Source: Squalus acanthias (Eukaryota). Taken from it: a DNA stretch of 64,000 nt. The notes under the pieces were generated by a model. It was not told the origin of the DNA. It saw only the letters and a program-made list of their open reading frames with translations, and searched no databases. Positions 19,401 to 64,000 of the stretch are shown piece after piece (position 1 is the stretch's first letter; each line of letters opens with the position of its first letter). Made by a program: the position numbers and the translations under genes. Where the stretch lies: assembly GCA_030390025.1 (NCBI GenBank), contig CM059430.1, forward strand, positions 153,450,001-153,514,000, written 5' to 3'.

Positions 19401-22400
19401 TGGGTTGCCTTCTGCTGTAGTCCTTGTGCTAGTGATATTTCCCCCAATGGGAATTCCAGGATTTTGACCCAGTGACAATGAATGAATGCTGATATATATC
19501 CCATTCAGAATGACGTGAGATTTGGAAGGGAGCTTGACGTTCCTGTGGTCTTCCTGCTTTTTTTTTTTGGTAGCTAATATTTGTGTGCCTTCTTAACTCT
19601 GCGATCTCCCCAGCGTAGCATTTGTCTTTCAGTTGACTGAAATCCCAGTTGGCTGGGTTAATTGCTGAGTCATATGCATGCAAATTCAACAATCAGCTGA
19701 GAAATTTGGCTATTCTAATAGCATGCAAACAGTGGGGCAGTCAGTTCATCGGGAAAATTAGTTTCCACGGCAGCAACCTAATGGCTCTTACTAGATTGCA
19801 GTAATTCTTGCAATCTAAAGGTTTATTTTTTCCATAGGAGGCCAAAAAAACATATTATTTTCATATTTTTTCCACAACTTTGCTGTAAAAACTTTTTTGG
19901 AATTTCATGTAAATTATTAAATTTTTAATTTTTTTTAAAGTACATTTCATTTCTTTTATTTTCCAGCCCCGTTGGAACTTAATTCGGGTGTTGATTTCCT
20001 GTTTGACTGTGGGCTTGTGACAACAGATGAAGAACAGCCAGAATCTGAAATCCCACGAGCTGTCAGAAGGGTACGATTTATTTGAGAGTTTGTATGTGTG
20101 TTCAGCAGAGCCATGTGACTGCCGCGACAGTCAGTGGGTTCAAGTTGTGGCATTTTGGTCCTTTTTAAAAATAAATACAAAATAGTTGAGCTTTAACTCG
20201 GCAATCTTGCCATCAGTATCGCATGTGTTTTTTTTTAAAAAGCCCCACTCCCACCAGTGCTTGGTTGATAAATGCACTGCCAACTCAGAACTGAGCCACA
20301 GAAATTGGGAATGTTTGATCTCTGGTCTGTGGTGAGTTAGCTGATAGTTGAGGTGGTGATGGGACTACAATTACTTCAGTGTTCTGGGCCAGGGAGAGAG
20401 AAAATGGGCGAATGTGGCTGCTCCTGATTTCTAAACGTTGGCCCCTACTGGATAGTGGATGTGTGTAAAAGTAGTGCTTGAGGACCAAATCAAACTTGAC
20501 CTGGACTTCCTTCACAGTTGAATACAGGAAACTCTTTGGTATCCGGCACCTACGGGACTGGGATGGTGCCGGTTTATTAAAAATTCCGGATAACGGAGAT
20601 GTATACCTACCAAGGTACGAGAGCCCCGGTTACACGGCCGCTTGTGCAGGAGCCCCGGTTACACGGCCGCTTGTGCAGGAGCCCCGGTTACACGGCCACT
20701 TGTGCAGGAGCCCCGGTTACACGGCCACTTGTGCAGGAGTCCCGGTTACACGGCCACAGATCCAGGAGCCCCGGTTACACGGCCACTTGTGCAGGAGTCC
20801 CGGTTACACGACCACTTGTGCAGGAGTCCCGGTTACACGGCCACTTATGCAGGAGCCCCGGTTACACGGCCACTTGTGCAGGAGCCCCGGTTACACGGCC
20901 ACTTGTGCAGGAGTCCCGGTTACACGGCCACAGATCCAGGAGCCCCGGTTACACGGCCACTTGTGCAGGAGTCCCGGTTACACGGCCACTTGTGCAGGAG
21001 TCCCGGTTACACGGCCACTTGTGCAGGAGCCCCGGTTACACGGCCACTTGTGCAGGAGCCCCGGTTACACGGCCACTAATATACAGTAAAACTTACCTGA
21101 ACCTACTCCTGAATTTTGCTGGTTAATAGAGAATTCCGGATATTTAGGTGCCGTTTAAACGAGAGTTTCCTGTTGATCAAAGCCACTCACTGCTTTGTTT
21201 CACACGTGAAGAATGACCACTTGGATCAGATACTGAAGGGGGCTGAAACTTGTGAAACTGTACCCCAGTGTGAGTAATTGCTTTTGTGTGGAAAATGTGT
21301 TAAATTAGAGCCATTTAAAAAAAAAAAGAGATTTTTCATTCTCTGAATTAAGTGGGGAAAAGAGAAGGGGGACAATTCGAAGACACGAAGAGGTTTTCAG
21401 GAGAAGGGAGCAAATTCGCTTTGCCATAAAGAAAGACTTGATTTTGGTGTTTTTATTTTTGTTTTTCCCCTTGTAGGGTCAGAAGCGGATAATGCTTTCA
21501 GAAAGCTGTTCACGTGATTCTCTTGCTAGTCAACAGTGCTGTACTGGATTAAATTACTCATATGGAGTGAATGCCTGGAAGTCCTGGGTCCAGGCTAAAT
21601 ATGCCAGTGGCGATACCAGTAAAAGTGAAGAGCTCAGGTTTGGACGTAAGTGTGTGGTTTTGTTTTATTTCCTTTTGATCGTGATGGTGTGTACCTTTTT
21701 ATTTATTTTTTTCCTCCTTTAGTAGTCTGTTTGGGCAAGACCACTGGCCAAATCGCTCTGTCCACAGCTCTGCCAGTTCTGGAGAGTTATCCATTACAGC
21801 TGCAGGAAAGCAGTCCTGGACTAACTAGCACTCTTTTTGATCCGTTTCCAAGTGAATGTGGGCCACAGTGCAAAAACTGCCCCATATATGACGTTAGTTG
21901 GCATTGGATTGGAAATCTCACTTGGATTGCCATAGAATTGGAAATCTCACTTGGATTGCCATAGGACAGCTTAAGTGTTAAATGGAGAAATGTCACGGGT
22001 ACAGTAGGGAATAATTGCCTGAGGTTGGGGTGTTCACTTTTACACTTGACCTGGGAGTGATTGCTGATGTTAGGTGCCAAGAATGAGGACACAACAGCTA
22101 TTGCCGTGACAAGTTTAAAAAAAAAAAAAAAATCAACAAAAAATAAAGTTTTTTTAAATACATTACTTTGTTTGGAAAAGCATCCACTATTAACCTGGAT
22201 TGAGTTTAAAAAAAAATCAATAAATGATTGATTGTTGTATACATTCTTTGCAGCAGTCTCCGCTTTGTGGCTGTGATGTCCTGTACAGTTGAACTGCTTG
22301 TTGACACTCCCTGTCCAGGTTCATAAATTAAGACTGGACAGTTAAGGTAGCAGCAGGCTCCCATCACCTGTGGCAGCCATGGTCACTGCCTTGAGAGGAG

Positions 22401-25400
22401 AAAATTGGGGAGAACAAGATAGACAGCTACCAAAACATTTGGGCTGCTGCAACATTTTTTGAAGAATAGAAGTTTATTGATTTGTAATCTTTTTTTTTAA
22501 ATTTTCAGGTACTTGGTATATCTTGAGTGAAATACACATCCACAATATTAACCTTCCAGTGCATTTTGCAGTGGGGAGGGAAAGTACATGTGTGAAGTAT
22601 TTTGTGAATTGCTCCCCCAGGCCACAGTTTTAAAAAAACAACTTATTTCTCCAAATGTGGGTGATGGCAAGGTGGCATTTATTGCCCATCCCTAGTCTCT
22701 GAGAAGGTGGTGGTGAGCCACAGCATTCCTTATATTGATGATGCTCCCACAATGGTGTTTAGTAGAGATTTCCAGGATATTGGTCCAGCGATAATGGAGC
22801 AATGGTGATGTATGTCCAAGTTAGGATAGTGTCCCACAACATTGCTGCTCTTGATCTCCGTGGTAGAGGTCATAAGGGAGGGAGATATTGTCAAAATAAA
22901 CTTGATGTTGTTGCAGTGCATCGTCGGAGCTTCTTTAGTGTTGTGGTTGCACCCATCTAGGCAGCTGGTGTATGTTCCATCATACTCCTGACTTGAGCCT
23001 TCTAGATGGTGGAGAAGCTTTGTGGGGACAGGAAGTGAGCCAATTGTTGCAGAGTGCCCAGCCTCTGCCCTGCTCTTGTAGCTACCATTTATATATGGCT
23101 GGCTTTTAATTTGGGGCTGCGGTAAATATCTTTTCAGACTCGAGGGTGTCAGTCACTCCCTTAAGCCACCTAATCCCCTTCAGATGGTTCAAGTTAACAC
23201 TGGGTGAGGTTTGGTTGAATTGTCAGCTGCTTTATTCGAAAGTAGGTAAAACCCACAAAACAATGAGATTTATGAGAGTTGCTTAATACAATTGCCATAA
23301 CAGATTGAGATTCGGCTGGGGTGCCTGTGGGCACTTGGTGGTGGTGTTTTTGTACAGAGCCATTGCTTTATGCTGACTGAAGAAGTCTGACTCCCTTTTT
23401 ATTATGTGTAATTCTGGGATTTTTAACTGATGTTTTGGGGTTGGGGAGGGGTGGGGGCGGAAGGGTGCAGAGTGGGGCTTGAATTCTGCAAATCCATCTA
23501 TTTTTCCTGTTCTTCCCCTATCAGCTAAACCTGTGGCTCCTGTGGAGCAGTAGCCCAGTAAGGAGTCAGTACCTTCATGGGGAGAGAAGACAGTGGGGGG
23601 AGCGCAGATGTCAGATCTTTTGGCATTGCAACCTTGGAACCACTTGTTTGCTCCATTTTATAAAATTTTTATTTCTGTTCTTCCCCTATCAGCTAAACCG
23701 ATGAGGATTAAAGAGGATATTTTATCCTGCACTGCTGCAGAACTAAACTACGGGCTGGCCCAATTTGTTAAAGAAATACAGAGGCCCAACGGAGAGCGTT
23801 ACGAGCCGGATAGCGTTTACTACTTGTGTCTCGGAATTCAACAGGTTTGTTTAAGTTCAGATTTGGATGAGCTGAGTCAGCATGTTACTTTTGCTGTACA
23901 GTATATCTAGGAATGGCAGAATGCCAGCATTTTGCCGACGCACCATTGTATAGTGAGTTGCTGATCTAGGTCGCATGCTGTCGGGTGAGTCCACAAAGGG
24001 ACTTGAGGTTCATCTTCCACTGGGAAGGAGGGAGTTACTGAAGCTATTTCTCTCTCCCTCCCCCCCCCCATAGCAAAATTTTGCTGATTTCATGTTGAAT
24101 ATTGCGATTGTTATTGGTCTGCTTTTAAAAGCAGAGAATAAGATGTAAATGTGAATGATTTTGAGGCATACTGGTTCGGACGTCCTAGCATTGAGCATCT
24201 TCTGCTGACGGCTTGCTCCCTTACCACCGCTAATGTTGCTCTCTGCTAGCCACTCTGGAGTGGATGAGAGCAGCCCAATGAAGTCAATGAATTTTCTCTC
24301 CAGTCTCTTACTCAGGCTTTTGTGGGAGACTTGGCCAGATGCATTAATGCTGATCAACTTGCAGTCAAGTGTAAAAATAAAACTCAACCCTAATTGATAG
24401 TATATTGCTTATACACATCACTCTGTCAAAATCAGAAGAATTCTGGTTGAAATATTAAGATCACTTTGGTGTTACCTAGGTTTTCGAATTGAACTGATTG
24501 CAAGATGGGTTCAGGCGAAGAAGGCTGTTCAGGTCATTCACTGTCATCCTGCCACAATAAAGACCCTGCAGTCTTTCCATTGTAGCACTTAGCCTTTTCT
24601 TAAGAGTCTATTGTCATGGCCGTAACCACTGGAGTTACATCAAGTTAGTTACCACAAGTGGCTGTTAAGGCAGAAGCTGTCCCTTCATTTAAAAAAAAAG
24701 GAATTGGATAAAGAGTAAGAATGAATTTAGAGTAGATGGCACCAATTTTTATGTAGCACATAAGGTTAAGGGTTGGGATTGTACCACTAGCTCTGAGTGC
24801 TCTAAAAGTAACTGAAATGACCATCAGTCCTTTTATAAATCCTCTGTCGTAAAAAAATCTCTCTTGCATCTTTGTTTCAGTTATTCATTGTAAGACATTA
24901 GTATCTTTTTGTTTCCCAGTTGCTTGAGAATTAAAATAACGAATATGCTTTGAAATAGAGTATGGCTATACTCTACACAAGCTTTTATGGGAGCAATATT
25001 AGCAGGCTGAGAAGCACTTGGGGGTATAGCTCAGTGGTAGAGCATTTGACTGCAGATCAAGAGGTCCCTGGTTCAAATCCGGGTGCCCCCTCAAAAAGTT
25101 TTTTTTGTTTAAAAACAAATTCAATTATTCAGTTAATTTATCTTCAGTAATTTTCAATGTTTTCATCTTGAAAATTAAGGTCATGTTCTTTAATTTATCA
25201 TGGTTTCTACTAATTTTTTTGAAACTTTTTCGCATTGACTTTTGTTTTTGCTTTTGTCATTCTGCCTTTTTGGTGCCCCTCCACTAGAGGGAGCAGTGAC
25301 CTAAGAAATCTGAGTGCTTTCAACTGGAGATTCATCTATTTGCTGGTATAAACATAATCAGATGTAGTTTTAGATTGGGAACCGTCATAGCTTTTTAACT

Positions 25401-44207: not shown

Positions 44208-44927
44208 GGCCCAAAAATTCGGCCTAATACGGGAGAGTACGCACTGTGTACTCACCCGTATTAGATCCCGAAGTGCCGGTTTCCTGCATGCACTGCGCAT
44301 GTGCGGGAAACCGGCGAAGGGGGCGGTTCCTAGGTGAACCGCGTGCGCACTACAGGCTGTGCGCACGCAGCACACTTAGGTTTTTTTTCAGGTTTCAACG
44401 CGAGGGTAAGTATGGAAGATTATACACAAGTAAAAAGGAGGCGTAAGACCCCTTTTGAACAAGGTAAGTTAATTAAGTATAATTTTTAATTTTTTTCAAC
44501 AGGTTTATCTTTTTTAGAGACTAAAGAAAGGTAAATTTATTTTTATAACTTTAAAAAAAATTTAATTTTTTAATTTTTTAATTTTTGTTTAAAGTTAATT
44601 TATCTAACTAGTTTTTTTTTTTTTTAATTTATTTGAGATTTAGCTGTTCTTTTGGGGTCTCTTTCAATTCACAGATTTGACATGTCTCCTGTCAAATCTA
44701 TGAATGAAAGATAGTCTGCTGCCATTGGCTCTCCATGACCCACGTGATCCCAGAGGTCGCATCGCACTAACTGCGCCCCTGGGACACGCACACACTGCGC
44801 GCCGGCACTAGGGAGAGGCCCAGGACCCGAAGTTCCTGTGGGCCCAAAACACAACGGCCGGCGCGGAGTGTGATATCGTGCGCGATCCTTACCCCCGCGG
44901 CAAGCCTCCGAGTCAAATTTCTGGGCC
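44208..44927. mobile_element. PIF/Harbinger-like MITE
   Basis: TIRs ggcccaaaaattcg / caaatttctgggcc; 3-bp TSD AAT on both sides. Confidence 0.8.
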
Positions 44928-45913: not shown

Positions 45914-48300
45914 AACATAAGAAATAGGAGCAGGAGTAGGCCATTTGGCCCTTCGAGCCTGCTCCGCCATTCAATAAGATCATGGCTGATCTTCTACCTC
46001 ATTTCACTTTCCTGCACCATCCCCATATCCCTTGATTCCCTTAATATTCAAAAATCTATCCATCTCTGACTTGAATATACTCAACAACTGAGCCTCCACA
46101 GCCCTCTGGGGTAGAGAATTCCAAAGATTCACCACCCTCTGTGAAGAAATTTCTCATCTCAGTCCTAAATGGACAACCCTTTATTCTGAGACTGTGACCC
46201 CTGGTTCTGGACTCCCCAGTCAGGGGAAACATCCTCCCTGCATCTACCCTGTCAAGCCCTGTAAGAGTTTTGTGTGTTTCAATGAGATCCCCTCTCATTC
46301 TTCCAAACTAGGCCTAGTCTACTCAATCTATCCTCATAGGACAATCCCTCCATTCCAGGAACCAGTATGGTGAACCTTCGATGCACTCCCTCTATGGCAA
46401 GTATATCCTTCCTTAGGTAAGGAGACCAAAACTGTACACAGTACTCCAGGTGTTGTCTCACCAGGGCCCTATATAATTGCAGTAAGACATCATTACTCTT
46501 ATACTCTCATCCTTTTGTAATAAAGGCCAACATACAATTTTTCCTAATTGCTTGCTGTACCTGCATGTTAACTTTCAGTGATTCGTGTACAAGGACACCC
46601 AGGTCCCTCTGAACACCAACATTTCCCAATCTCTCACCATTTAAAAAATACACTGCTTTTCTATTTTTCCTACCAAAGTGGATGACTTCACATTTCTCCA
46701 CATTATATTCCATTTGCCATTTTCTTGCCCACTCACTTAGCCTGTCTATATCCCCCTGAAGCTTCCTTGCATCCTCCTTGCAACTTATATTGCCACCCAC
46801 CTTTGTATCATCAGCAAACTTGGATATATTACATTTGGTCCCCTCATCCAAATCATTGACATAGATTGTGAATAGCTGAGGCCCAAGCACTGATCCTTGC
46901 GGTACCCCAATAGTTACAGCCTGCCAACCTGAAAATGACCCGTTTATTCCTACTCTCTGTTTTCTGTCCACTAACCAATCCTCAATCCATGCTAGTATAT
47001 TACCCGCAATCCCATGAGCCCTAATTTTGTTTAATAACCTCTTGTGTGGCACCTTATCGAATGCCTTCTGAAAATCCAAATACACCACATCCACTGGTTC
47101 CCCCTTATCTATTCTGCTAGTTACAACCTCAAAAAACTCAACAGATTTGTCAAACATGTTTTCCCCTTCATAAATCATGTTGACTGCCCAATCCTATTAT
47201 TTTCTAAGTGCCCTGTTACCATGTCCTTAATAATTCTAGCATTTTCCCCTACTGCTGATGTCAGGCTAACTGGTCTGTAGTTCCCTGTTTTCTCTCTCTT
47301 TTCTTAAATAATGGAGTTACATTTGCTACCTTCCAATCCCCAGGAACCGTTCTAGAATCAATGGAATTTTGGAAAATGACAACCAATTCATCCACTATCT
47401 CTATAGCCACCGCTTTCAAAACCCTAGGATGTAGGCCATCAGGTCCAGGGATTTATCAGCTTTCAGTCCCATTAGTTTCTCCAGTACTATATTTTTTTTA
47501 CTAATTTCTTTCAGTTCCTTATTCTCACTAGACCCTTGGTTCTCCACTATTTCCAGGAAGTTTTTTGCGTCTTTTTCCATGAAGACAGACACAAAGTATT
47601 TGTTTGATTTCTCTGCCATTTTCTTATTCCCCATTATAATTTCTCCTTTGTCAGCCTGTAAGGGACCCACATTTACTTTCACTAATCTTTTCCTTTTTAC
47701 ATACCTATAGAAGCTTTTACAGTCTGTTTTTATGTCTCTTGCTAGTTTACTCTCATTCTATTTTCCCTTTATCAATTTCTTGGTCATCCTTTGCTGAATT
47801 TTAAAATCCTCCCAATCCTCAGGCTTACTACTCTTTTTGGCAGCATTATAAGCCTCTTCCTTTGATCTAATACTATCTTTAACTTCTCTTGTTAGCCACG
47901 GTTGGACCACTTTTCCTGTGGGGTTTTTGTGCATTAAAGGAATGTATATTTGTTGTAAATTATTTATTAATTCTTTAAATGCTTGCGTACCATCATACCT
48001 TTTAATGTCGTTTCCCAATCTACCTTAGCCAACTCACCCCTCATACCTACGTAGTTTGCTTTGTTTAGATTTAAGATCCCAGTTTTGGATTTAACTTAAA
48101 TCACTTTCAAACTCTATAAAATTCTATCATATCGTCACTCTTCCCTAAAGGCCCCTTTACTACAAGGTTATTAATTAACCCTTTCTCGTTGCACAATACT
48201 AGATCTAAAATAGCCTGTTTCCTAGTTGGTTCTTCAACATACTGATCTAGAAAACTATCTTGCATACATTCCATGAATTCGTCCTCCACACTATTACTGC
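45914..48300 (-). mobile_element. CR1 LINE, 5'-truncated, with disrupted ORF2 (reverse transcriptase)
   Basis: VDVVYLDFQKAFDKVPH...GVPQGSVLGPQLFTIYVNDL...SKFADDTK; endonuclease-proximal ILDLVLCNE; 3' tail ...cctgctcctatttcttatgtt. Confidence 0.95.
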
Positions 48301-51300
48301 AAATAGTGGGGAGGATGAATTCCTGGCAACACAACTGAGGTAACGCTACAGATTTGAAGAGTAGGAAAAAAATGCCGATGCAGCCCACTATGTCATGGCA
48401 CTGTATGTTGATTTTCCTATAACCTGTACAACTCCAAGCATTTATAATTTTCTTTGCTTTTAAAGAGATCCTCGCTGAAAGACCTTCCTTTTTAAAATGT
48501 TTTTGTCTCCCATTAACCCAACTTCAGTTGTTCGAAAGAAAGCACAAAACCTAACACTAATAAAACCAGCTTGAGTTTCCACAGCACACTAGTTTGTGGC
48601 ACAGCACAGTGTTAGGAAATGATTTGACAAGTGGCTCTGCAGCCAGCATACAGTGCGATGTCATCAGATGTTTACACTGACCTCGCTATTAATAGCAACA
48701 GAATGATTCAAATTTCACCATGATTTTGGGTACAACCAATTCATTTGTCAATCCAGTTAGTTTAACTGAAATAAATTGTGGAAATGATCTCATAAATGAA
48801 ATACATCAATGTGAACCTAATTGTGACACTGACTTACTTGAGGATTTTATTCCTCTCTTTGTTAGTATTCTTATTTTCTTGGTTGTTGATGTGTGGAGAA
48901 AGATGATATGTAATTGTATGGAGGTTTCGGTGCCTCCTCCAATGGAGTGTTTTTATTCTTTCCTGAAGGTGGTGATTTATGCTGAGGTCCAGATCCTTGG
49001 AAGCCAGCCTCTTGACAACTGTCCATTCTTCATGTGTGAGCCCAGATAGTGAATAACAGCAATCTCTTCTACTGGGGAGATGTCGCCGTCAATCCCAAAC
49101 ATATCTTCATCCATATCTACATGTACACTTTCCTGCAAGGGCGTAACACAAAAATGAGGAGCAGGGACCTTGGCTCACGTTTTCATCCTAACTCAGGCAT
49201 GCTGAGGCCAGTGACAGTGTCTGCCATTGGAGTGGCTGCGATCAGCTAACTGAATAGAAACCAGTGATTGAGCCAGAGATTGCTAGTCTGTGTGGCTTAG
49301 TACCACCCTGCGTGGTGCACTAACACACTAAGCCAGCAGGAGATAGGAGGGGTGATTTCTGACCAGAAACTCTTAATTAAGAATTGTGGTACTCTATTAC
49401 ATTAATTTGGCTCAGTTAGTTGGAGTTTCTTCTATTTTCACCTGCTTGCTAATTTGAAGAGAGAGAGGGGTTTATTAAGGGATAAGGTAACGGGAGAAAA
49501 CTAACTTGTCCATCTGGTGATGCATCATGCCATCTGCTTGTGGCTCCTCTCCTATCATAGTTGGAAGGAAGATTTTTGGTGGATGTACAATCTATATTGA
49601 AAGAAAATATGGGAAGGCTGAGGAAAGCATAAATAAAATAATTTTAAATGATTAAACACTACCACATACCTGCATCCCAGAATTCCTGTACTTCTGGCTG
49701 AAGAAGGTATTAAATCCTACTGATGACTTGCTTGGGGTATTAGCTCAATCCATTGTGTACCATTGACCTTTGGTGATGTGCACCTTGTTAATCAGCAACT
49801 TTCAGTATGTGGGTCAATGTGTATTTATATCGGAGGTGTAGACTGATAAGTAAATCTTCAGGCAATAAACTTTTGTTTTTGTTTATATAATGTGATTAGA
49901 AGAAAGGTTTGTAATGTGTTACTTAGTCCACATTAAAAAGGAGCGCACTAATGTTAACTATGTATAAAAATTGTGAAATGCATAACATCAGTGATTTGTA
50001 TTTAGTTTTCCATCTGCTAAAGATTTGAATATTAATTATTTTGCTAAAATCATCCCGTTGAAACTGTCTCATCTCAACCTTGGGTTTAACATTGTTTTGA
50101 AATTTATATTGCTGGTATATAACCACCAATGACTTTTTATAGATATATATTTAAAAAAAACTAGACTCTTGACATATGGAATGAATATATGTTCATTTAA
50201 AAAAAAATCTTGATGTTTGTTGGAATAAATGGCTCCTGTGTGGGTGGCATTGTGGTATCTGAACCGGAGTAGCAGTGTCTTTGGATATTGTTTTAAAACC
50301 AAAATAAAATTACATTTAGTTGAACACGTTGGGAAACATTGGGTTTGATTTTAACACCTCACCCAGCAGTTTTCTAAGTAATCTAACTCCATCTCTCCAA
50401 CAGTTCAGGAAGCAGCATTTTTTTAAAATAGCAATGCACGACAGGTTGATCAGCACCCGAAAGATAAAAGGTAGATTAACATTTCAGGTGCAACCTTTCA
50501 CCTTTTTTGGATTCGTGAATAATTCAGTTAAGAGTTTTAATTTCATATCACTGACTCCGTTCGTTGTTGTCTCATCATGGAAATTGCTGTATCGTATGAT
50601 AAAATAACTTTAAATGCCAGGCTGTCCAGCTGGGTTGGTTAACTGGGCAATTCGGATAAGTACTGTATAGATGGATACTAGTAGGCTCGCATAATTTCTG
50701 ATTATGGGGAACCGGACTGGATGAAGGTTTCCCTCTCTCCTTGGAGGGCTAGCTCAGAAGAATATCAAAAATCTGAGGAAAAATTACCTCCAGTGGACAT
50801 ATTTGGGAGCCACAGGGAAAGTTGCTGGGATTATTACCGTCTGGAAAAGCTGCTGGAAATAGGGCAAGAGTAGGCAAAGAATGTGGCTCGACGATGCTCT
50901 GGAATGGGCAGGGGTAACGTTGGGGGCCGATGCAATTGACGTGAGCAAGATTGGAATGTACTAATTGTCAACCTGCAGAGCAGAGATGGCACACCTGAAG
51001 CTATTGAGAATGTTGATATTTCGAATTACCTCCTTTTTCTCTTTTAGAGGTTCCCCGCGCCTTCTCTGGTTGTCAGGCTGGCTGAATATAACCTGCCTGT
51101 TGGCCTCTGCCGAAATTCTTGGTCTCTGTTCTACCCTTTTGACACAGCTGGCATTGGAAACTCATAGGGAATTGCAGACGAGAATCCCTAACTGACCACC
51201 ATGTGTGGCATTGGAACTTCTGTTATCACCCTTCACTGCTATAGATAACATCTGATCTGGTTCATTAAAGGTTCTCTTGCATTCAATATACTGCGATGTG

Positions 51301-51659
51301 CACAGAATGTTGTGTGAAATAAGCGTAATAGTCCGGCAATGCAGTCCATATATTAATAAAAGCATTAGAATAAATTCCAAACAGAAGGGAGATGAGTTCC
51401 ATCTCCTTTACACAATGAGGGATAGGGGTTTATTGGAACAAAGGCCCATCAAGACTGTGCTACCATTGTATTATCTGTACAGCTCTATTTCTTTAATCCT
51501 CATTTTCTGACCTTGGTACATTGAAAATAAACTTTTTCTCTGTTGAGAGATGTGTGTTTTTATTTTAAAATCCCTTTTTACTTTCTTAAGTTCCTCCAAA
51601 TTCCCCACCCTGTTTGGCTCAGCAGGTGGAGGCAAGATTTGCTCCAGGCTCCTGTCCAT

Positions 51660-51793
51660 TCTGACGAAGGGTCATCGACCTGAAACGTAAACTCTGTTTC
51701 TCTCTCCACAGATGCTGCCTGACCTGCTGAGTGTTTCCAGCATTTTCTGTTTTTATTTCAGATTTCCAGCATCCGCAGTATTTTGCTTTTGTT
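51660..51793 (+). mobile_element. Penelope-like terminal-repeat insertion with hammerhead-like core
   Basis: CTGACGA-A-GGGTC-ATC-GACCT-GAAA-CGTA; flanked by the 8-bp duplication ctgtccat. Confidence 0.75.
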
Positions 51794-52774: not shown

Positions 52775-54931
52775 TTAGTATTCTAACAAATGCATTCTGA
52801 AACCTACTACAATTTGTGACAGACACCATATTGAGTTTGATTTTTCCATTCTCTCTTTATTTCTTATTTCCGTTCAAGTAAATAGGTAACAGTAACATGA
52901 CAAAAATGGAAGCAATTTCAGTGCATTAAACCTGTTGGATTCTGACAAGTATTTCTTCTTATTCTGGAATTAACTCGCAACATGATTTTGTTTTACCAAA
53001 AACAAAATGTAAATCAGATGTGAAGTATGCAAAATCTCCTCGTGTACTTTTGTAAAACTAATATGCTGCTGCTAAGCATCAACCCCTTCTAATCTGTCAG
53101 GGTAGCAGTGCTGTGCTGTGCTTTTATACGTAACACTGTTCAGAAAATACTAAGAATCTTATAGAAAGCTGAGCCTGTTTTGTACTTGGCACTTAGACCT
53201 AGCCATTGCAATTCTGTATCACAGCATTCTACTGGAAATATCGAGCCCTTTTCATTATAATAGTACAATGTTTTACAGAACTTTGGACGGATCCTTGTAA
53301 CAGTTTCACAATTGTCTAGCAGTTAAATTCACCGATCCGCTGGAACATTAGACCAGATGGACCAGAAGAGCCCAGATTCCATCCTTGGTCTGTGCTGAAG
53401 TAGGTGGTCTCGGCTGCAGAGGCAGTTGGGCTGTTATAATGAGGGCTCACCTGGTCTGATGACCAAAGTGGAAAAAATAGCCAGGATTCCCACACAGTGA
53501 TCTCTGCTGGAGAGTGCGTGGGTGTGGGTGAGAGGTGAGGACATGATCAAGCGCGGGTGTGGTTTTCATCTGCCCCGATCCCACAGTTGAATAGTCCGCC
53601 AACACTCGCTGCTTTGGTCTCCACACTTAAAGAATGGCCAGAAGAACTGCCAGAGCCTGTGAAACTCACCTGGAGTTTTCAGCAAAGGGGGAAAATACTT
53701 TTACAGGAAATGCTCATATATGTTTCTCAGCAATATTACGTTACTATATGAAATAAGAACATTTTAAAATTCAAATTACAGCCCAGAGTTCAAAATGCCA
53801 AAAGACAAAATGCTGGAAATACACAAAAGGTCTGAAAGAGAAAAATAACCTGCAAGTTTTGATGAAGTTTCTCCACCGGAAACCTATGTTTTCTCTTTCA
53901 GAGTCTGACCGACCTGTTGTCTATTTCCAGCATTTTCTGCTTTTTTTTTGTTGAGATTTCTAGCATTTGCAGTTTTTTTTGCCCCTCACCGAAAACGTTA
54001 AACTTTTAATGTCATTAATTTGTGAAGTTGTGATCTGATCACTGCAGGTTCATTGAGAGACAATCTGCAACTAATCACCAAGGAGCCTTGTGGCCAATAT
54101 ATTTTATATGCTGTCCATTTCATATTCCCGCTCCCATCTGTTTGACGCAGAACTTCTATAAGGATCTTATAAGTCCGTCAAAAGGAGTGCTAGTTTTCAA
54201 ATAAACCACTCTCTTCCTGTCAGCTGACAACTGTTTTCAATCAGTTCTGATGTTCTATCAACAAACATAAATGTGTTTTAAAAAAAACTCTCAATGAAAA
54301 GCAAAAAAACCCGAATGGCCATATTGACATTGATTAGAGAAAAGTTGGTGGCTGTAATGGAAAATATAAAAAGAAACAGCAAAAGCTCACTAAAAGGGCA
54401 TATACACATGTTTAAGGTTTAATACACTCAGTTTATATTATCTAAACTGCTGGGAGTGTCTTGTAACCTTATAACACACTCCTAGCCAACTATTATTCTC
54501 TACGTTATTGTTAAAAGTAGCAAGCAAAAGCGAATAATTGAATAATGAAAATGTTGAGCTATCTGCATAGTGCATTTGTGGGTATTAAAGAACACCATTG
54601 CTATTTTATTTAACCTGCAAATGTTTTCAACTTTATTTTTAGGGGTGTGTAAGTTTCCCCTTTTTTCCTGTATTTCTATGTTTCGTTGCCTGTAGGCGAG
54701 GGCAGAGAAAGGGTCTTCTCACAGGCTGCCATCATTGTAGCCAGCCACCAGGAGCCGCCAAAGGCTGCCCAGACATGAGCCCCCTCCTCTGATTTTCTTT
54801 CCATCTTCTCTCTCTTACACACCCACTACCCACTGTGATATGCTGCAGCCTTTGCTTATCACCTCCATGCTTTCTGTGGCTCAGCTGGGGAACTAAGAGG
54901 TGCAGAACTTACATTTGTCCCTACTCTGGTG

Positions 54932-55200
54932 CATAGGAACAGGAGCAGACCATTCAGCCCCTTGAGTCTGTTCAGCCATTCAATTAGATCATGGCTGATC
55001 TCTACCTCAACTCCATTCGGCTCCTTTGATACATATCTCTTACCTAACAAAAATCTATCAATCTCAGTCTTGAAAATTTCAATTGACCCAGCATCTACAG
55101 CTTTTTGGGAGCGAGAGCTTGGGATTTCCACCTCCCCTTGTGTGAAAAAAGTGCTTCCTGACTGCACTCCTAAATGGCCTACCTCTAATTTTAAGATTAT
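54932..55200 (-). mobile_element. CR1 LINE 3' end fragment
   Basis: Reverse-complement tail cataggaacaggagcagaccattcagcccc; FKTEIDRFLL. Confidence 0.85.
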
Positions 55201-55796
55201 GGACTTTCAAGAGACATTTGATAATGTGCCACATAATAGACTTGTTAGCAAAATTGAAGTCCATGGGATTAAAGGAGCAGTGGCAGCATGGATAAGAAAT
55301 TGGCTGAGAGACAGAAAGCAGAGAGTAGCGGTGAACGATTGATTATCAGACTGGAGAGAAGTATAGAGTGGTGTCCCCCAGGGGTCGGTATTAGGACCAC
55401 TGCTCTTTTTGACATATATGAGTGACCTGGACCTGGGCATAGGCGGCATAATTTCAAAGTTTGCAGATGACACAAAACTTGGAAATGCAGTAAGCAGTGA
55501 GGAGGATAGTAACAGACTTCAGGAGAACATCGACAGACTGGTGAAATGGGCAGACACATGCAGATGAAATTTAACGCAGAGGAGTGTGAAATGATAGATT
55601 TTGGAGGCAAGAATGAGGAGAGGCAATATAAACTAAATGGAACAATTTTAAAGGGGATGCTGGAACAGAGGGACCTGGGAGTTCACATACACAAATCTTT
55701 GAAGGTGGCAGGACAAGTTGAGAAGGCTGTTTAAAAAAAAAAGCATACGGGATCCTTGACTTTATTAATAGAAGAATAGAGAACAAAAGCAAGGAA

Positions 55797-55994
55797 TGAT
55801 GCGGAGATGCCGGTGTTGGACTGGGGTGGATAAAAGTGAAAAGTCGCACAACACCAGGTTATAGTCCAACAGCTTTATTTGAAATCACAAGCTTTCGGAG
55901 CGCTGCTCCTTCACCTGACGAAGGAGCAGCGCTCCGAAAGCTTGTGATTTCAAATAAAGCTGTTGGACTATAACCTGGTGTTGTGTGATTTCTC
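55797..55994. mobile_element. Penelope-like inverted terminal-repeat insertion
   Basis: Perfect 66-bp inverted repeat 55847-55912 / 55920-55985; 14-bp TSD acaaaagcaaggaa (55783-55796, 55995-56008). Confidence 0.85.
55911..55947 (+). ncRNA. Minimal type I hammerhead ribozyme motif
   Basis: Stem I UCAC/GUGA, core CUGACGA(+A), stem II GGAGC/GCUCC, GAAA, palindromic AGCU stem III, CUU cleavage triplet. Confidence 0.7.
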
Positions 55995-58900
55995 ACAAAA
56001 GCAAGGAAGTTATGCTAAACTGTTATAAATCACTGGTTGGACCTCAGCTAGAGTATTGTGGCCAATTTTGGGCACCACACTTTAGGAAGGATGTCAAGAC
56101 CTTGGAGAGCGTGCAGAGGAGATTTACTACAATGGTATGAGGGACTTCAGTTTGATGGAGAGACTGGAGAAGCTGGGCTGGTTCTCCTTCGAGCAGAGAA
56201 GGTTAAGGGGAGATTTACTAGAGATGTTCAAAGTTATGTAGGGTTTTGGTGGAGTAGATAGGGAGAAACTGTTTCCACTGGCAGGAGGGTCAGTAACCAG
56301 AGGACACAGATTTAAGATAATTGGCAAAAGAACCAGGGGGGAAAGAGAAGAATATTTTTTTTTTTTACACCGGAATGCACTGCCTGAAAGGGTGGTGGAA
56401 GCAGATTCAATAGTAACTTTCAAAAGGGAATTCGATATATACTTGTAAAGGGGAAGATTGCAGAGCTATGGGGAAAGAGGAGAAGAGTGGGACTAATTGC
56501 ATAGCTTTCAAAGAGCTGGCACAGGTGTAATGGGCCAAATAGCAGCCTTCTGTGCTGTATGATTCTAGGTCACTTTGGCCAAAGTTATTTTATGATCAAT
56601 TGATTTATCTATAATTTTTTAAAATTCAAAGTACTGTTATTAACGGCTGGGTGGTTGCTTGAAATATCTCTTTTTAAAATTTATTCGTTCATGGGATGTG
56701 GGCGTCGCTGGCAAGGCCGGCATTTATTGCCCATCCCTAATTGCCCTGGAGAAGGTGGTGGTGAGCCGCTGCCTTGAACCGCTGCAGTCCTTGTGGTGAA
56801 GTTACTCCCACAGTGCTGACTTTGTCGTAGCGGTTTGGTACAACTGAGTGTCTTGCTGGGCCATTTCAGAGGGCAGTTAAGAGTCAACCACATTGCTGTG
56901 GGTCTGGACCAGGTAAGGACAGCAGATTTCCTTCCCTAAAGGACATTAGTGAACCAGATGGTGGGATTTGAACTCACGTCTCCAGATTATTAGTTCAGGA
57001 CTCTGAATTACTAGTCCAGTAACATAACCATTATGCTACTGTCTGTTTAATCTCATTAGGACATAGCCTTCAACTTTTTACTTGAAAGTCACTTTTGTAG
57101 CTATTGTGTGACAGCACTGTGGTCTCTGAATAAGATCTCCTGTGCTAATGTTTTTCAGGGAATCCAGTGGCATAATGTATTGATGCTCTGTTGAACTATG
57201 CCATGCAAGATAGGACATGGGTTCATATCGTGATTCTTGATATCAACCAGACCATCTGTGGAAAACAAGCACCAAATGAAGCTCCTTAAAGAGATGAAGG
57301 GATAGTCAACTCCAATCATTGTATTCAGCATCGGTGAAGCCTGAGAGCTGCTCTCCAATGGCCCATTGGTGTTCCCATTGGCCTGTGAATGAGCTGCTAG
57401 CTCACATCAACAGCAGCAAAGACAAATGGCCCACAGAAAACCCTGAAAATGATTCTTCTCCCTGAAAAATAGAGCATATGTGTAGTTCATTGAAGGGGAA
57501 ATGAACACACTCTTTTAAAAAAAAACTACATGAGGAGAAATTTTAAAATGCAACAGAACTGAGAATTTTAGAGAAAGCTCAACTTTAATCATGGGACGAC
57601 AATGTTAACATTTGAACCAATTGCTTAAAGTCGTTAAAATGACTATCACCAAATGAAAGGGATATTGTCTTTTAAATCTATGCTGACATATGTGCCACAT
57701 GACAATGTGAACAAGCCTTTCATAAACCATTTCATTGTCCCTCAGGTTCCTCGTGCTGTGAAGTAATGGTCTCCATCTGACTTATAGATTGTTCTTTAGT
57801 TATGGTAACAGTTGTGTTATTTTTGCCCCAAACAGCATTAGCTAACAAACCTCCTTTTGCTGGGAGATCCTTATTTTGTAAATATTTTTCCCATGTATTG
57901 AACTGGAAAACATATCCATAACTATAAAAAGATGTTTCTGCGGACAGTAATGCACTATGGCAATGCTTAATACTCCATTGTATTATGCTTTAAAGTGGTA
58001 GAAGACAGTCTGTAGGGTGTACTCTTAATCTCAGCCATCTGGTCTGGTGGTGCAAGGCATTGGTTGCAGATTAGGCAACTTCTCTACAGGGAGGGAAAAG
58101 GGAGTCTGAGCAAGAGCAATGCTAGTGGGGGCTTAGGAGCAGGTCACCTAACAGCCTTAGTAAGGATTGATGTGTGGTTTGAAGAAATTGAAAGAGGAGA
58201 CAGTAAAAAATAAAAATACTTTAAAGCGAAGGCTGAAACATGGAAGTATGCCTTCCCTACTCCTCCAAATTTGGAAAAGAAAAAGTTAAAAGGGTATGGG
58301 GAAAGGGTAGAGGGAATGAAGCTAAGCAGATAGCTCTTTTAGAGAGCCAACACAGATGCATTGGGCCAAATGACCTCTTTCTGTGCTGTAATAGTCTATG
58401 TTTCTATAAATCCTTAATAATGGGAACTATATTACCAAAATTTAGCAATTGAAATAAAAAGAAAAGAAACATGAAAAGCGGATTGGTTACCCACACAATT
58501 TAACATTTGGGTGCCCAACGATAATTGTAAACATAGTTTTATAAAAAAACATTGCAATAAAAGTGGCTATTTAAACTACACTGCTGAATTGCAGAAAAGC
58601 CGAACTAGGTAAAACTAGAATTCTGGCAGCACTGACGAAGACTCATCGACAGCTGAGACTCATTTTTTGAAATTAGTGGCTGTTGTTGGATGAACGCAGA
58701 CTTGTCAAAGTTACCTGGATGACTAAGTTATGCTGTCTGAGTAGAAAGGAGTAGTGCAGGGTCACTAAGAGGACCATTCTTATCAAGTCAAAGTCTCTTT
58801 TTTTTGAATTAGGCAGCTGGCAAGCGAATCGCGATTGAAGATCAGGCCGCTGCTGCTGCTCCTCCCGGCTCCACAATCAGGTAAGTATTTTGAAAAACTT

Positions 58901-59351
58901 ACCTTGTTGGTTGTTCGGCCACATGTAGACTTGTTTTTCCTGAGTGCAACCAGCGTGTGCGGCCTCAGGGCAAAATATCCTGCAGTGGGGGCCTCAAACA
59001 GGCGCTCGGCCTCTGTTTCAGGCATGGGCAATGCAAGCTGATTTTTGGCCTTTACCAGTATGGTGGGTGGTGTAGTTCCCGCTTGTAATGAGCGTGCATT
59101 TCCTGCCCACTATATTGGAGGCTTGGGAGGCCGTTTAGTGCCTGAAAAACAGGGAGGGGTGTGCCGAATTTCTAGGCCACTGTTTCCCACCGCTAACCAT
59201 ATGCAATATTATAAAGTCTTCCTGAAGTGCAGTCCTTTACTTAAAAAAAAAGCTGCATGTTCCTAATACAAACCTTTAACAATGTTCGCATTGAAGCTTA
59301 GTGCTAAGTGACTGCAATTATTCTTCTGAATTTTGCTCAAGAAAAGATATT

Positions 59352-59720
59352 GGCCCGTATTTTCCGATCCCTACGGGTGTGTACGAGCTGTGTAGACACC
59401 CATAGGGACCTTGCAAGTGCCGGTTTCAGGCATGCGAAGCGCATGCGCTGAAAACTGGCACTTTCGATCTGTCAAGAATCCTCGACAGATTGGACGCCTG
59501 CGGCTGGAGAAGGGCCTCTGCGGGTGGAGAGTTCCGCTTTCTGCAGAACCTCCGCCCGCTGAAATCCCTTAAAAATCTTACGCCTGGTAAAAGCATTTCA
59601 TAGAGCAGAGGCCCAAGAGCGGAAATGGCTGGACCTCTGGAGCCCTCGGGTAAGGGAGTAGATTTTTTCCAGATCGGAGGCCTCCGCACGCAGGAAGCCT
59701 CCGATCGGAAAATACGGGCC
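59352..59720. mobile_element. PIF/Harbinger-like MITE
   Basis: Perfect 18-bp TIR ggcccgtattttccgatc / gatcggaaaatacgggcc; flanks att/gtt. Confidence 0.85.
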
Positions 59721-61625
59721 GTTATAATACAGCAGATATACATAGCTTAAATTACTGTTCACGACAGTGTGAAACCATTTTTGCAAATATAATTTTGTTT
59801 AACATCAGTATTGCAGTTTAAAAAATATTTTTGTCTGATACATATTTTATTAAATTTGAAGCTGGGCTCGTTGTTGGCACAATATAGGTAAATATACTGC
59901 CCAGTGGTACTGAGCCATACATATCAGGAAGGTTCAAGTTCAAGATTCAATCTGTGAGCCATCCTGTGTTAGCTGCTCCACTGATCCAGTGCTCACTTTG
60001 TGAGTGTTGCAATTGACAACAGTGTCCAGGGCTAAGAAGTTTTCCCACTCCTGATTGCTGTCCAGTGATTTGTGAGGCTTCACCCTTGAAGTCCCTCATG
60101 GTTGTACGTGTGAGGGAATTCAAATGTGCCATTTTCATTTTAGCTGTTCACACTGGAAGGCTCCCTGGGGATATGCAATTGATCTGAAGGTGACTTCCTG
60201 TTAACTTAGAAACGATATTTTAAAAAATATTCGTTCACGGAATGTGGGCGTCATTGGCAGTGCCATCATTTATTGCCCATACCTACTTGCCCTTAAGAAG
60301 GTGGCGGTGAACCGCCTTCTTGAATGGCTGCAGTCCGTGTTGTCGGAGTTTGGTACAACTAGGCCATTTCAGAGGGCAGTTAAGAGTCAACCATATTGCT
60401 GGTGGTCTGGAGTCACATGCAGGCCAGACCGGGTAAGGACGGCAGATTTCCTTCCCTAAAGGACATTAGTGAACCAGGTGGGTTTTTACGACAATCCGAT
60501 AGTTTCATGGTCGCCATTACTGATACTAGCTTTTTCTTTAATTCCAGAATTAATTAACTGAATTTAAATTCCTCAGCTGCTGTGGTGGGATTTGAACTCA
60601 TGTCTCTCCGGATATTTAGTCCAGGCCTCTGGATTATAGTCCAGTAACGTAACCACTATGCTACCGATAAAAAGAACCTTCAGTTCCCAAGTTGACAGGT
60701 TGGGACTTCCACAAGTTGTTGTCCAATTCCAACCATGCTATGCACACAATACAAATGTCTCAAGATATGCTGTTTGCATTTTTCTAAAGCTCCAGAAGGT
60801 TCTACAATTGTGCCATGCCTTCTAAATGTAGCAAACTAATACTGTTCTGCAATGAATTCATTGCACAAGTGTAAATCAGTGGCAAGTTTTAAATGTGTCT
60901 TACTGTTCTTTATTCCATTCCTTTCACCCTAACTAACGGTTGGTTTACTGACTGGAAGTAATTCTGAAATACAAGCTTTTAAAACTTTGTACTCCTTGAG
61001 CACTACTCTCTAAAAGATGTTTATGCAGTTCCTCAGTTCTACAGGATTCTATTCCAAGTGCTGACGAGCTGCAGAAGGAATTTGGAGGAAAAATTCTCTT
61101 CAGGAATCTTGGGCCTACCAAAATTCCTGGACTAAATAAGAATAAAGTGCTTGTGTTAGCTCACACAGTGCCACGAGTAATACCTTCTGGAGCAAAAAGT
61201 GTTTGCATAACATTTTTTGGTGGGAAGAGATGAACTTAACAAAATGATGGGGGAAGTGATGACATTATTTCATACCAATCATACCTGTAATTGACATCAT
61301 GACAGAGTAAAGTTGCAGAAAAGTGGAATATGGACAAGTGCATTGCAAAATCAACCCTGGTGGGTATTGGGATGCAGAAAGACCCAGATCAACTTTGCAT
61401 GCCAGTTTTTTAACTTGATGAGTTATGCTGTATACCACTCTTCCAGACGGCCATATCCTTTTAATGTTATAATCTCACTTAGAATCCATAAACGGTCAAG
61501 TAGCGGGGACACAAGTTAAAATAAATTAACAATAAAAAAGTCAGGCAGAAGCTCTTTACACAACAGACGTGTGGAATAAATTACTGGGGAAAACCTTGTC
61601 ACGCAGGCAGTGTAAATGGGACAGT

Positions 61626-63276: not shown

Positions 63277-64000
63277 AGGTTGCCACATTGCCGTTGTAAG
63301 GATGGCACACAGAGTCCGTTTCTGCCAGCGGGGAGACGTTGAAGCCCGACTCCATCTTGTAGAGCTGTGGCCCGTTGTTGTTGGTGAAGTACTGGTAACT
63401 AGGGGCGCAGGGCCCCAACCTCTCACTGGGCAGTACGCCATTCTGCTTACAGGTGGCCTTTGAGGCTTGGCTGTCCCTGGTCCTCTCTCTACATTTCTTG
63501 AGTCCCAGATGGCATACTTCAATTAGGTTCAAAAGTAGTGACAGGCAAGCCATAACCAGCATGAATATAATGAAAATAGTCTTCTCAGTCGGGCGGGATA
63601 TGTAACAGTCGACGGTGTTAGGGCAAGGCCAGTAGTTACACTTGTAAAGAGGCTTCAGCTCAAAGCCGTAGAGATAGTACTGGGCCAATATGAAACCGAC
63701 TTCAAAGAGGGTTTTAAAAATGATATTAAACAAATAAGTGCGTAGAAGGACGCCTTGCATTCTAACTTTACCGTTTTCGTCCAGGGTCTGGCTTTTGATG
63801 TTCTTGGCATTCTGCACCAACGCCTCCTTGTCTCCGGGTGGATACCTGCTCAGCTTCTCTTTCTCCTTCTGCTTCTGTTTTTCCTCCATCCGCACCAAGT
63901 GAAAGATGTGGCCCAGGTAGACCAGCGTAGGGGTAGACACGAAGACGATCTGCAGCACCCAGAAGCGGATGTGGGAGATGGGGAAGATCCTGTCGTAGCA
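63275..64000 (-). CDS. Alpha-class gap junction protein (GJA3/Cx46-like, probably cx39.9/gja2-type); 5' end outside window, this frame ends at a premature TAA
   Basis: [31 protein letters not shown]...[19 protein letters not shown]...[23 protein letters not shown]: connexin signatures, intronless in the window. Confidence 0.93.

What the first reader, a model, noticed from the sequence alone, without database searches (positions are those of the whole stretch)
55783..56008. Young palindromic retro-insertion carrying a complete minimal hammerhead ribozyme
Seen: a 198-bp insert in a CR1 with an exact 14-bp TSD and a perfect 66-bp inverted repeat (7-nt spacer). The spacer plus right arm read UCAC-CUGACGA-A-GGAGC-AGC-GCUCC-GAAA-GC-UU-GUGA, which contains all hammerhead core nucleotides with stems I and II and a palindromic AGCU stem III. 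The - strand mirror lacks the CUGA core. Known: Penelope-like elements carry minimal type I hammerheads in their terminal repeats that cleave as dimers. Inferred: a recently mobilised non-coding PLE derivative whose RNA could switch between a long hairpin (ribozyme off, dsRNA substrate) and a self-cleaving fold.
Basis: partly seen in the sequence, partly recalled or inferred. Interest (0 to 1): 0.75.

Follow-up and report, generated by a model that had tools for sequence, protein, structure and literature searches.

The report
Hairpin-shaped Penelope retroelement stub with hammerhead
A 198-base hairpin-shaped insert with an exact 14-base target duplication and a textbook minimal hammerhead motif sits inside a dead LINE; it is likely the leftover end of a Penelope-like jumping gene, a kind of scrap already described, and its ribozyme is predicted to stay locked in the hairpin rather than act as a switch.

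Summary
Related LINE copies lack the insert. The insert is two opposite copies of one repeat end joined head-to-head, one 41 bp longer. That matches the published Penelope-like element (PLE) signature: inverted 5'-truncated pLTR, one-sided 30-40-bp tail, TSD. The motif fits the 2014 PLE min-HHR consensus. In coded public runs the same end also occurs without a mirror arm and with other junctions, so the palindrome is likely built at insertion. No RT/GIY-YIG ORF could be linked here. The 'switch' is not supported: the hairpin is predicted to win by about 46 kcal/mol and to form first during transcription. 'Young' holds only relative to the host LINE. The scan's unchecked notes describe the same kind of stub on other DNA (e1-7858806, e1-9889456, e1-7790103). 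Verdict: new member of a known kind, low interest. The residual value is as one data point on how PLE inversions form.

The parts
55783..55796 (+). Left copy of the 14-bp target-site duplication
   Evidence: related LINE contigs carry the flank directly before 55995, i.e. one copy only (loose ends in X1, 88 contigs, and X9, 197 contigs)
55797..55837 (-). One-sided 41-bp 'tail' (39 bp if the 2-bp match with the right TSD is counted to the element); 68% A+C in sense
   Evidence: tail definition from PMC8557442, PMC3846280 and PMC11167929
55797..55912 (-). Inverted, 5'-truncated repeat end (116 bp), starting at G8 of the hammerhead core, so it lacks CUGA
55797..55860 (-). Predicted stem-loop with an A/C/U-rich loop; the short arm ends at a position inside this loop (candidate reverse-transcription start region)
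   Evidence: -13.4 kcal/mol, z -2.05, 8 of 200 shuffles as good; weak. Analogy to PAc (PMC11167929) is inferred
55909..55923 (+). Junction: 4-bp CTTC/GAAG self-complement around the 7-nt spacer; CTTC appears native to the direct copy
   Evidence: 53 contigs of X6 fit from 55909 and go on upstream with non-mirror sequence; joint 55872->55909 in X1 (2 contigs) and X9 (1)
55909..55994 (+). Direct, 5'-truncated repeat end without tail
55911..55947 (+). Minimal type I hammerhead motif; predicted cleavage after U55943 (untested)
   Evidence: fits the consensus in Fig. S3 of PMC4209133
55995..56008 (+). Right copy of the TSD; its first two bases (AC) also continue the element sequence (2-nt microhomology)
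55200..56405 (+). Host: decayed 3' part of a LINE (CR1-type label recalled), with stops and frameshifts; ends approximate
   Evidence: 79% identical over 383 bp to a second copy at 26063-26435

Best explanation
The insert is two opposite copies of one high-copy repeat end joined head-to-head in a decayed LINE, and it is likely a stub of a Penelope-like retrotransposon whose palindrome was likely built during this one insertion and whose hammerhead is predicted to be inactive here. Shown: the anatomy (TSD, arms of 116 and 75 bp, 41-bp one-sided tail, min-HHR, 4-bp junction complement) and that related LINEs lack the insert. Inferred mechanism: the PLE protein nicked both strands 14 bp apart. 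One 3' end primed cDNA at the tail end of the PLE RNA, the other 41 nt further in. Both products stopped after about 80-120 nt, at the hammerhead. They were joined at CTTC/GAAG, either by annealing of the two cDNA ends or by fold-back of one cDNA with fill-in. The hammerhead is a passenger from the pLTR, where such motifs are thought to work as dimers or with protein help. Here any read-through RNA would form a 66-77-bp dsRNA hairpin.
For: Anatomy equals that described for endonuclease-bearing PLEs: inverted 5'-truncated pLTR, optional 31-bp tail, 8-10-bp TSDs and junction palindromes in A. vaga (PMC3846280); 30-40-bp tail (PMC8557442). Purified PAc cuts and extends both strands and starts at two sites that bracket the tail, in an AC-rich stem-loop (PMC11167929). 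The motif meets the min-HHR consensus (CUGANGA-H, G10.1-C11.1, palindromic 15.2/16.2, NUH, AU-rich 3' flank) and has the same UCAC/GUGA stem I as the lamprey Poseidon example. In one search (4 of 21 listed runs laid) all bins over the insert are covered in all four runs, 53 contigs of X6 carry this end with a non-mirror upstream flank, and 8 different left-to-right jumps inside the insert are listed (4 of 15 rows shown in table 5, 4 of 12 in table 5c). A second, older hammerhead-bearing family has a decayed head-to-head pair at 53800-53990. Hairpin dominance.
Against: No RT/GIY-YIG ORF was linked to this repeat: no genome is held, none of 136 ORFs scanned (133 of at least 62 aa from 33-64 kb plus 3 further upstream) hit GIY-YIG, and five collection scans found nothing. 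Rfam gave no hammerhead match. The TSD (14 bp) is longer than the 8-10 bp read for A. vaga. The listed jumps could also be central deletions of a palindromic master. The run tables are cut (127 variant rows, 661 joints and 3513 loose ends not shown), and the runs may not be the window's species (best share of words 0.47). Arkhipova 2013 reads such palindromes as self-priming on an antisense template, not two-ended priming. Energy models omit the hammerhead's tertiary contacts and proteins.
Confidence: 0.8

Rival explanations
1. Same PLE origin, but the mirror arm was made purely by self-priming (fold-back) at the native CTTC-N7-GAAG mini-hairpin, on an antisense RNA or on first-strand cDNA, with no second independent priming.
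For: Junction palindromes are read this way in PMC3846280. 0 mismatches in the inner 66 bp against 3 in the outer 9-11 bp (P 0.001-0.002 if uniform) suggests the inner part was self-copied.
Against: Self-copying of the short arm cannot supply the 41-bp tail. The 4 variant rows listed inside the insert all fall at 55831-55840 (4 of 40 rows shown), so the outer part may simply be the variable part of the family.
Confidence: 0.25
2. A non-autonomous palindromic PLE derivative that is transcribed and mobilised as a 198-bp unit.
For: Non-autonomous PLE derivatives exist (PMC8557442; bioRxiv 10.64898/2026.07.22.740005). pLTRs alone can mobilise sequence in trans (PMC3846280). The insert is abundant in all four runs.
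Against: Other centres and a non-mirror upstream flank are seen. The two ends differ by exactly a tail, as expected of a fresh two-ended insertion. A 77-bp hairpin would be a poor template (inference).
Confidence: 0.08
3. A functional RNA switch between a dsRNA hairpin and a self-cleaving hammerhead.
For: The isolated 42-nt motif folds stems I and II with P near 1. The PAc hammerhead is protein-assisted.
Against: ddG 46.5 kcal/mol; nine extra left-arm bases already bring it to 21.6; the hairpin forms first co-transcriptionally. Single min-HHRs showed no cleavage and dimers little (PMC4209133). The site lies between a ZMYM-family gene and a connexin gene, about 18 and 7 kb from their nearest detected coding exons, and read-through from the connexin gene would read the strand without the core.
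Confidence: 0.02
4. A MITE or other palindromic DNA transposon, with a hammerhead-like sequence by chance.
For: About 200-bp palindromic DNA transposons exist in vertebrates (Xenopus Harbinger, PMC5625713).
Against: The repeat starts 39 bp inside the left end, so it is not terminal. The motif appears in 0 of 200 shuffles at this strength. A 14-bp TSD is longer than usual for cut-and-paste transposases (recalled).
Confidence: 0.03
5. Assembly artefact (fold-back chimera).
For: Perfect palindromes with short loops are a known library artefact (recalled). No listed contig spans the whole stretch.
Against: Exact TSD on both sides, LINE sequence that resumes in register, three mismatches between the arms and a one-sided tail.
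Confidence: 0.02

Closest known systems
Insertions of endonuclease-bearing Penelope-like elements with inverted pLTR, tail and TSD (Pen2a_Av and others, Arkhipova et al. 2013, PMC3846280; Craig et al. 2021, PMC8557442)
   Same: Head-to-head inverted 5'-truncated copy, tail on one side only, TSD, short palindrome at the inverted junction, insertion into another non-LTR element.
   Different: No ORF and no second direct pLTR: both copies stop at the hammerhead. TSD 14 bp against 8-10 bp; tail 39-41 bp against 31 bp.
Minimal type I hammerheads (min-HHR) of metazoan PLEs (Cervera and De la Pena 2014, PMC4209133)
   Same: All consensus features; stem I UCAC/GUGA as in the Petromyzon Poseidon example; G-C-U-U at the cleavage site as in the Chrysemys and Philodina examples.
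   Different: The motif is covered by its own full-length antisense arm. I saw no chondrichthyan row in Fig. S3 as text.
PAc (Poseidon of Anolis carolinensis; Frangieh et al. 2024, PMC11167929)
   Same: Ends roughly 80-120 nt downstream of the hammerhead core, two end points a tail apart, an A/C-rich stem-loop at the end.
   Different: No protein here. No ORF start in the hammerhead of this copy (CUGACGA). In the passages read, the paper does not treat inverted insertions or TSDs.
Non-LTR retrozymes (PMC7229834; bioRxiv 10.64898/2026.07.22.740005)
   Same: Short, non-coding, type I hammerhead, proposed PLE origin.
   Different: Retrozymes are head-to-tail tandems with a hammerhead in each unit; this is a head-to-head pair with one complete motif.

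Membership tests
Penelope-like element (EN+) insertion | Parent element encodes PLE RT plus GIY-YIG endonuclease | not testable with these tools
   No genome held; no GIY-YIG hit in 136 ORFs scanned; no copies in viral, metagenome, prokaryote or plasmid collections
Penelope-like element (EN+) insertion | Inverted 5'-truncated copy joined head-to-head | tested here: met
Penelope-like element (EN+) insertion | 30-40-bp tail at one end only | tested here: met
   41 bp (39 with the 2-bp microhomology)
Penelope-like element (EN+) insertion | Target-site duplication, single copy at the empty site | tested here: met
   14/14; paralogous LINE contigs lack the insert. The orthologous empty allele was not seen
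Penelope-like element (EN+) insertion | Repeat end also found as the end of a longer, non-palindromic element | tested here: met
   53 contigs of X6 with a non-mirror flank before 55909 (median 16 letters, agreement 0.69); another coded organism than the best holder
Penelope-like element (EN+) insertion | AC-rich stem-loop at the reverse-transcription start sites (as PAc) | tested here: inconclusive
   z -2.05, 8 of 200 shuffles as good
PLE minimal type I hammerhead | CUGANGA-H, G10.1-C11.1 stem II, GAAA, palindromic 15.2/16.2, NUH, short stem I | tested here: met
   against the consensus
PLE minimal type I hammerhead | Covariation in stems across copies | tested here: inconclusive
   No stem variant among 40 rows shown (127 hidden). 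The 2 indel rows in the insert (of 6) lie in loop II; one contig shows another loop II
PLE minimal type I hammerhead | Self-cleavage as a dimer | not testable with these tools
   Needs a bench assay; predicted blocked in the full insert
Rfam hammerhead families | Match to a curated covariance model | tested here: not met
   None at gathering score in the window; none among 22 matches to E 10 at 55700-56100
Non-LTR retrozyme | Two or more head-to-tail units, each with a complete hammerhead | tested here: not met
   One complete motif; head-to-head; definition
MITE / TIR DNA transposon | Inverted repeats at both termini | tested here: not met
   Repeat begins 39 bp inside the left end; definition

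The most novel reading that the evidence does not exclude
The stub records how PLE inversions form. Both nicked strands prime on PLE RNA at two sites 41 nt apart, and a native CTTC-N7-GAAG mini-hairpin made from the hammerhead's own core edge lets one cDNA fold back and copy the inner 66 bp. That would explain zero mismatches inside and three outside, make the ribozyme sequence a preferred inversion point, and be testable in the PAc in vitro system and on thousands of genomic stubs.
Probability: 0.2. Interest if true: 0.5.

Novelty: new member of a known kind. Interest (0 to 1): 0.17.

Why it matters
As a single locus it matters little: it is one stub of an abundant repeat, in an arrangement described in 2013-2021 with a ribozyme class described in 2014. 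As a class such stubs have two uses. Their junctions, tails and arm mismatches are a free record of how PLE inverted insertions form, which Craig et al. 2021 call still undefined. They are also self-contained dsRNA hairpins, likely editing substrates if transcribed, and easily mis-filed as MITEs or microRNA precursors (the best Rfam scores were miRNA models below threshold).

Tried and rejected
No whole genome held, so no copy count and no ORF link. Rfam: only a tRNA at gathering score; at E<=10 generic hairpin models and no hammerhead. Pattern scans of viral contigs, metagenomes (17, 56) and prokaryote genomes (58), and blastn of plasmids (59): 0 matches. BLAST of the insert against the window: no second copy beyond 15-nt chance hits. 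Expression: no RNA holder on record; X16 is only guessed to be RNA and its contigs are family-wide, so it says nothing on this locus. Orthologous empty site: no listed contig spans the stretch, so presence/absence is undecided. Summed depths are not copy numbers and were not used as such. Look-ups of earlier findings by sequence, near place and relatives were blank. Cofolding two 42-nt motifs gave a stem-II-swapped dimer as MFE rather than an AGCU-paired one; the model cannot score the hammerhead core, so this is uninformative. The Cas9_C_2 hit at 49926-50150 (E 6e-4, below cut-off) was taken as chance. Lunse et al. (PMC5785218) is not held; known only as cited in PMC6765202. Searches for twin priming or fold-back stubs in PLEs listed no paper devoted to such mini-palindromes; most subscription journals and Repbase/Dfam were not searchable, so this is not proof of absence.

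Full report
Observation. The 14-mer at 55783-55796 recurs unchanged at 55995-56008 and encloses 198 bp. The perfect inverted repeat is 66 bp (55847-55912 / 55920-55985) around ACCTGAC, and extends to 77 bp with three mismatches, all in the outer 11 bp. The whole insert folds at -144.9 kcal/mol, z -21.7. The hammerhead elements are where stated. A descriptor written after seeing the motif found this one full hit in the window; 1 of 200 shuffled windows gave any hit and 0 of 200 one as strong. Rfam has no hammerhead match here.

Host and empty site. The flanks are a decayed LINE RT region ('CR1' is a recalled label). The reading frame ends ...NRRIENKSKE at the left TSD and resumes VMLNCYKSLVG after the right one. 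Contigs of 4 of 21 listed public runs were laid on 55450-56350 at 85% likeness. In X1 (88 contigs) and X9 (197 contigs) the sequence before 55995 resembles 55753-55782, so related LINE copies have one copy of the 14-mer and no insert. These are paralogues. No listed contig spans the locus, so polymorphism is undecided. The site lies between a ZMYM-family gene on + (zf-FCS, QRICH1, DUF3504; last hit at 37162-37413) and a connexin ORF on - (63278-64000).

Read in sense, the left arm is 116 bp and the right arm 75 bp from the same base (G8 of the core); the left arm has a 41-bp extension. The right arm ends where the element and the TSD share AC. In X6, 53 contigs fit from 55909 and continue upstream with pyrimidine-rich, non-mirror sequence (median 16 letters, agreement 0.69), and X1 and X9 have contigs that enter at 55909. 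So CTTC and the whole hammerhead belong to the direct copy, the junction sits on a native 4-bp CTTC/GAAG complement, and this end also exists without a mirror arm. Eight other left-to-right jumps inside the insert are listed (4 of 15 rows shown in table 5, 661 hidden; 4 of 12 in table 5c, 401 hidden). They fit palindromes with other centres, but could also be central deletions.

Comparison with what is known. Arkhipova et al. 2013 (PMC3846280; abstract, passages and Discussion read) describe inverted pLTRs, an optional 31-bp tail, 8-10-bp TSDs and palindromes at head-to-head junctions, which they ascribe to self-priming. Craig et al. 2021 (PMC8557442; passages) give the 30-40-bp tail and inverted 5'-truncated copy as general PLE traits and call the mechanism undefined. 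Cervera and De la Pena 2014 (PMC4209133; parts 1-2 of 4 and supplement parts 1-2 of 3) define the min-HHR. This motif meets every consensus item and shares stem I with the lamprey Poseidon example. They report thousands of solitary motifs per genome, pairs 100-700 bp apart on opposite strands, no cleavage of monomers and low cleavage of dimers. Frangieh et al. 2024 (PMC11167929; parts 1-2 of 4 and passages) show that PAc cuts and extends both strands, starts at two sites that bracket the tail in an AC-rich stem-loop, and has a protein-assisted hammerhead that is not needed for insertion. The sense strand of the tailed end folds a modest stem-loop of this kind (z -2.05). Retrozymes are head-to-tail tandems (bioRxiv 10.64898/2026.07.22.740005, part 1 of 5 and passages, supplements not seen; PMC7229834, passages) and do not fit. 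MITEs need terminal repeats (PMC8969392, passages). Dimer cleavage by Lunse et al. is known to me only through PMC6765202 (passages).

Mechanism. Shown: the anatomy. Inferred: staggered nicks 14 bp apart; priming from both strands at the two PLE start sites; early termination of both cDNAs at the hammerhead; joining at CTTC/GAAG by annealing or fold-back. The mismatch pattern (0 of 66 inner, 3 of 9-11 outer; P 0.001-0.002 if uniform) favours self-copying or later homogenisation of the inner arm. But the 4 variant rows listed in the insert all lie at 55831-55840 (4 of 40 shown, 127 hidden), so the outer part may just be the variable part of the family. The defining PLE feature, an RT/GIY-YIG parent, could not be tested. 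Membership rests on structure and motif.

The switch. With stems I and II enforced and the core unpaired, the ensemble energy is 46.5 kcal/mol worse than the free fold, with or without 150-nt flanks. A transcript starting at 55900 is already 21.6 worse; one starting at 55909 is 4.3 worse; the isolated 42-mer 1.3 worse. In a growing + strand chain the arms are paired (P 0.9997) by 55930, before the 3' half of stem II exists. The model omits tertiary contacts and proteins, but these are unlikely to pay 46 kcal/mol (inference). The - strand has no core. If transcribed, the locus would give a stable dsRNA hairpin, as palindromic Harbingers do in Xenopus (PMC5625713, passages). Expression was not shown.

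Age. Younger than the host LINE: CpG o/e 0.75 against 0.26, with an intact TSD, although 0 of 14 differences only bounds divergence below 19%. Not brand new, or not the runs' species: the left arm differs from the majority letter at 55831 (96-100% of depth in the four runs) and 55840 (79-100%), and the right arm carries the majority letter at the mirror of 55840. The best run holds 0.47 of the words.

Recurrence. A second hammerhead-bearing family lies at 51661 (core and 5-bp stem II), with decayed relatives at 31100-31230 and a head-to-head pair at 53800-53990. Unchecked notes of this scan report palindromic PLE stubs in two other genomes and fold-back insertions and an intact young PLE on other pieces of this genome. 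I had reached the PLE-stub reading before these look-ups and could not tie them to this family by sequence. The label 'shark-like' comes from those notes and was not tested.

Verdict. Interest 0.17. The boldest reading not excluded, that the hammerhead's own edge acts as a fold-back point during two-ended priming, has probability about 0.2.

Noticed in passing
window 51657-51790 (+): Second min-HHR-type motif (CTGACGA, 5-bp stem II, GAAACGTA) heading a different repeat end; stem I looks degraded.
   Followed up: partly
window 53800-53990 and 31100-31230: Decayed relatives of the 51661 family; 53800-53943 is an old head-to-head pair with 40-bp arms at 80%.
   Followed up: partly
window 4585-37413 (+): Exons of a ZMYM-family gene (zf-FCS, QRICH1, DUF3504).
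   Followed up: partly
window 63278-64000 (-): Connexin ORF, tail-to-tail with the ZMYM-family gene; resembles the ZMYM3-GJB1 neighbourhood (recalled, not tested).
   Followed up: no
window 25020-25091 (+): Intact-looking tRNA gene (70.3 bits; anticodon reads GCA, Cys) between exons of the ZMYM-family gene.
   Followed up: no
window 20621-21080: Tandem array of a 58-bp unit, 91-97% alike, open in three frames on +.
   Followed up: no
window 7714-8074 and 59347-59725: MITE-like units with 32-bp (91%) and 23-bp (91%) inverted ends about 360-380 bp apart.
   Followed up: no
window 8672-8738: Perfect 22-bp inverted repeat with 23-nt spacer.
   Followed up: no
window 44224-44380: Two short palindromes (20 and 22 bp arms) close together.
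   Followed up: no
window 46354-48523 (-): Better preserved LINE with a 228-aa open RT stretch (RVT_1, E 5e-24).
   Followed up: partly
window 55929-55930 (run X1, X16 contigs): Family variants with one base put in at loop II of the hammerhead (30 and 24 contigs in X1), and one contig with a different 7-nt loop II.
   Followed up: no
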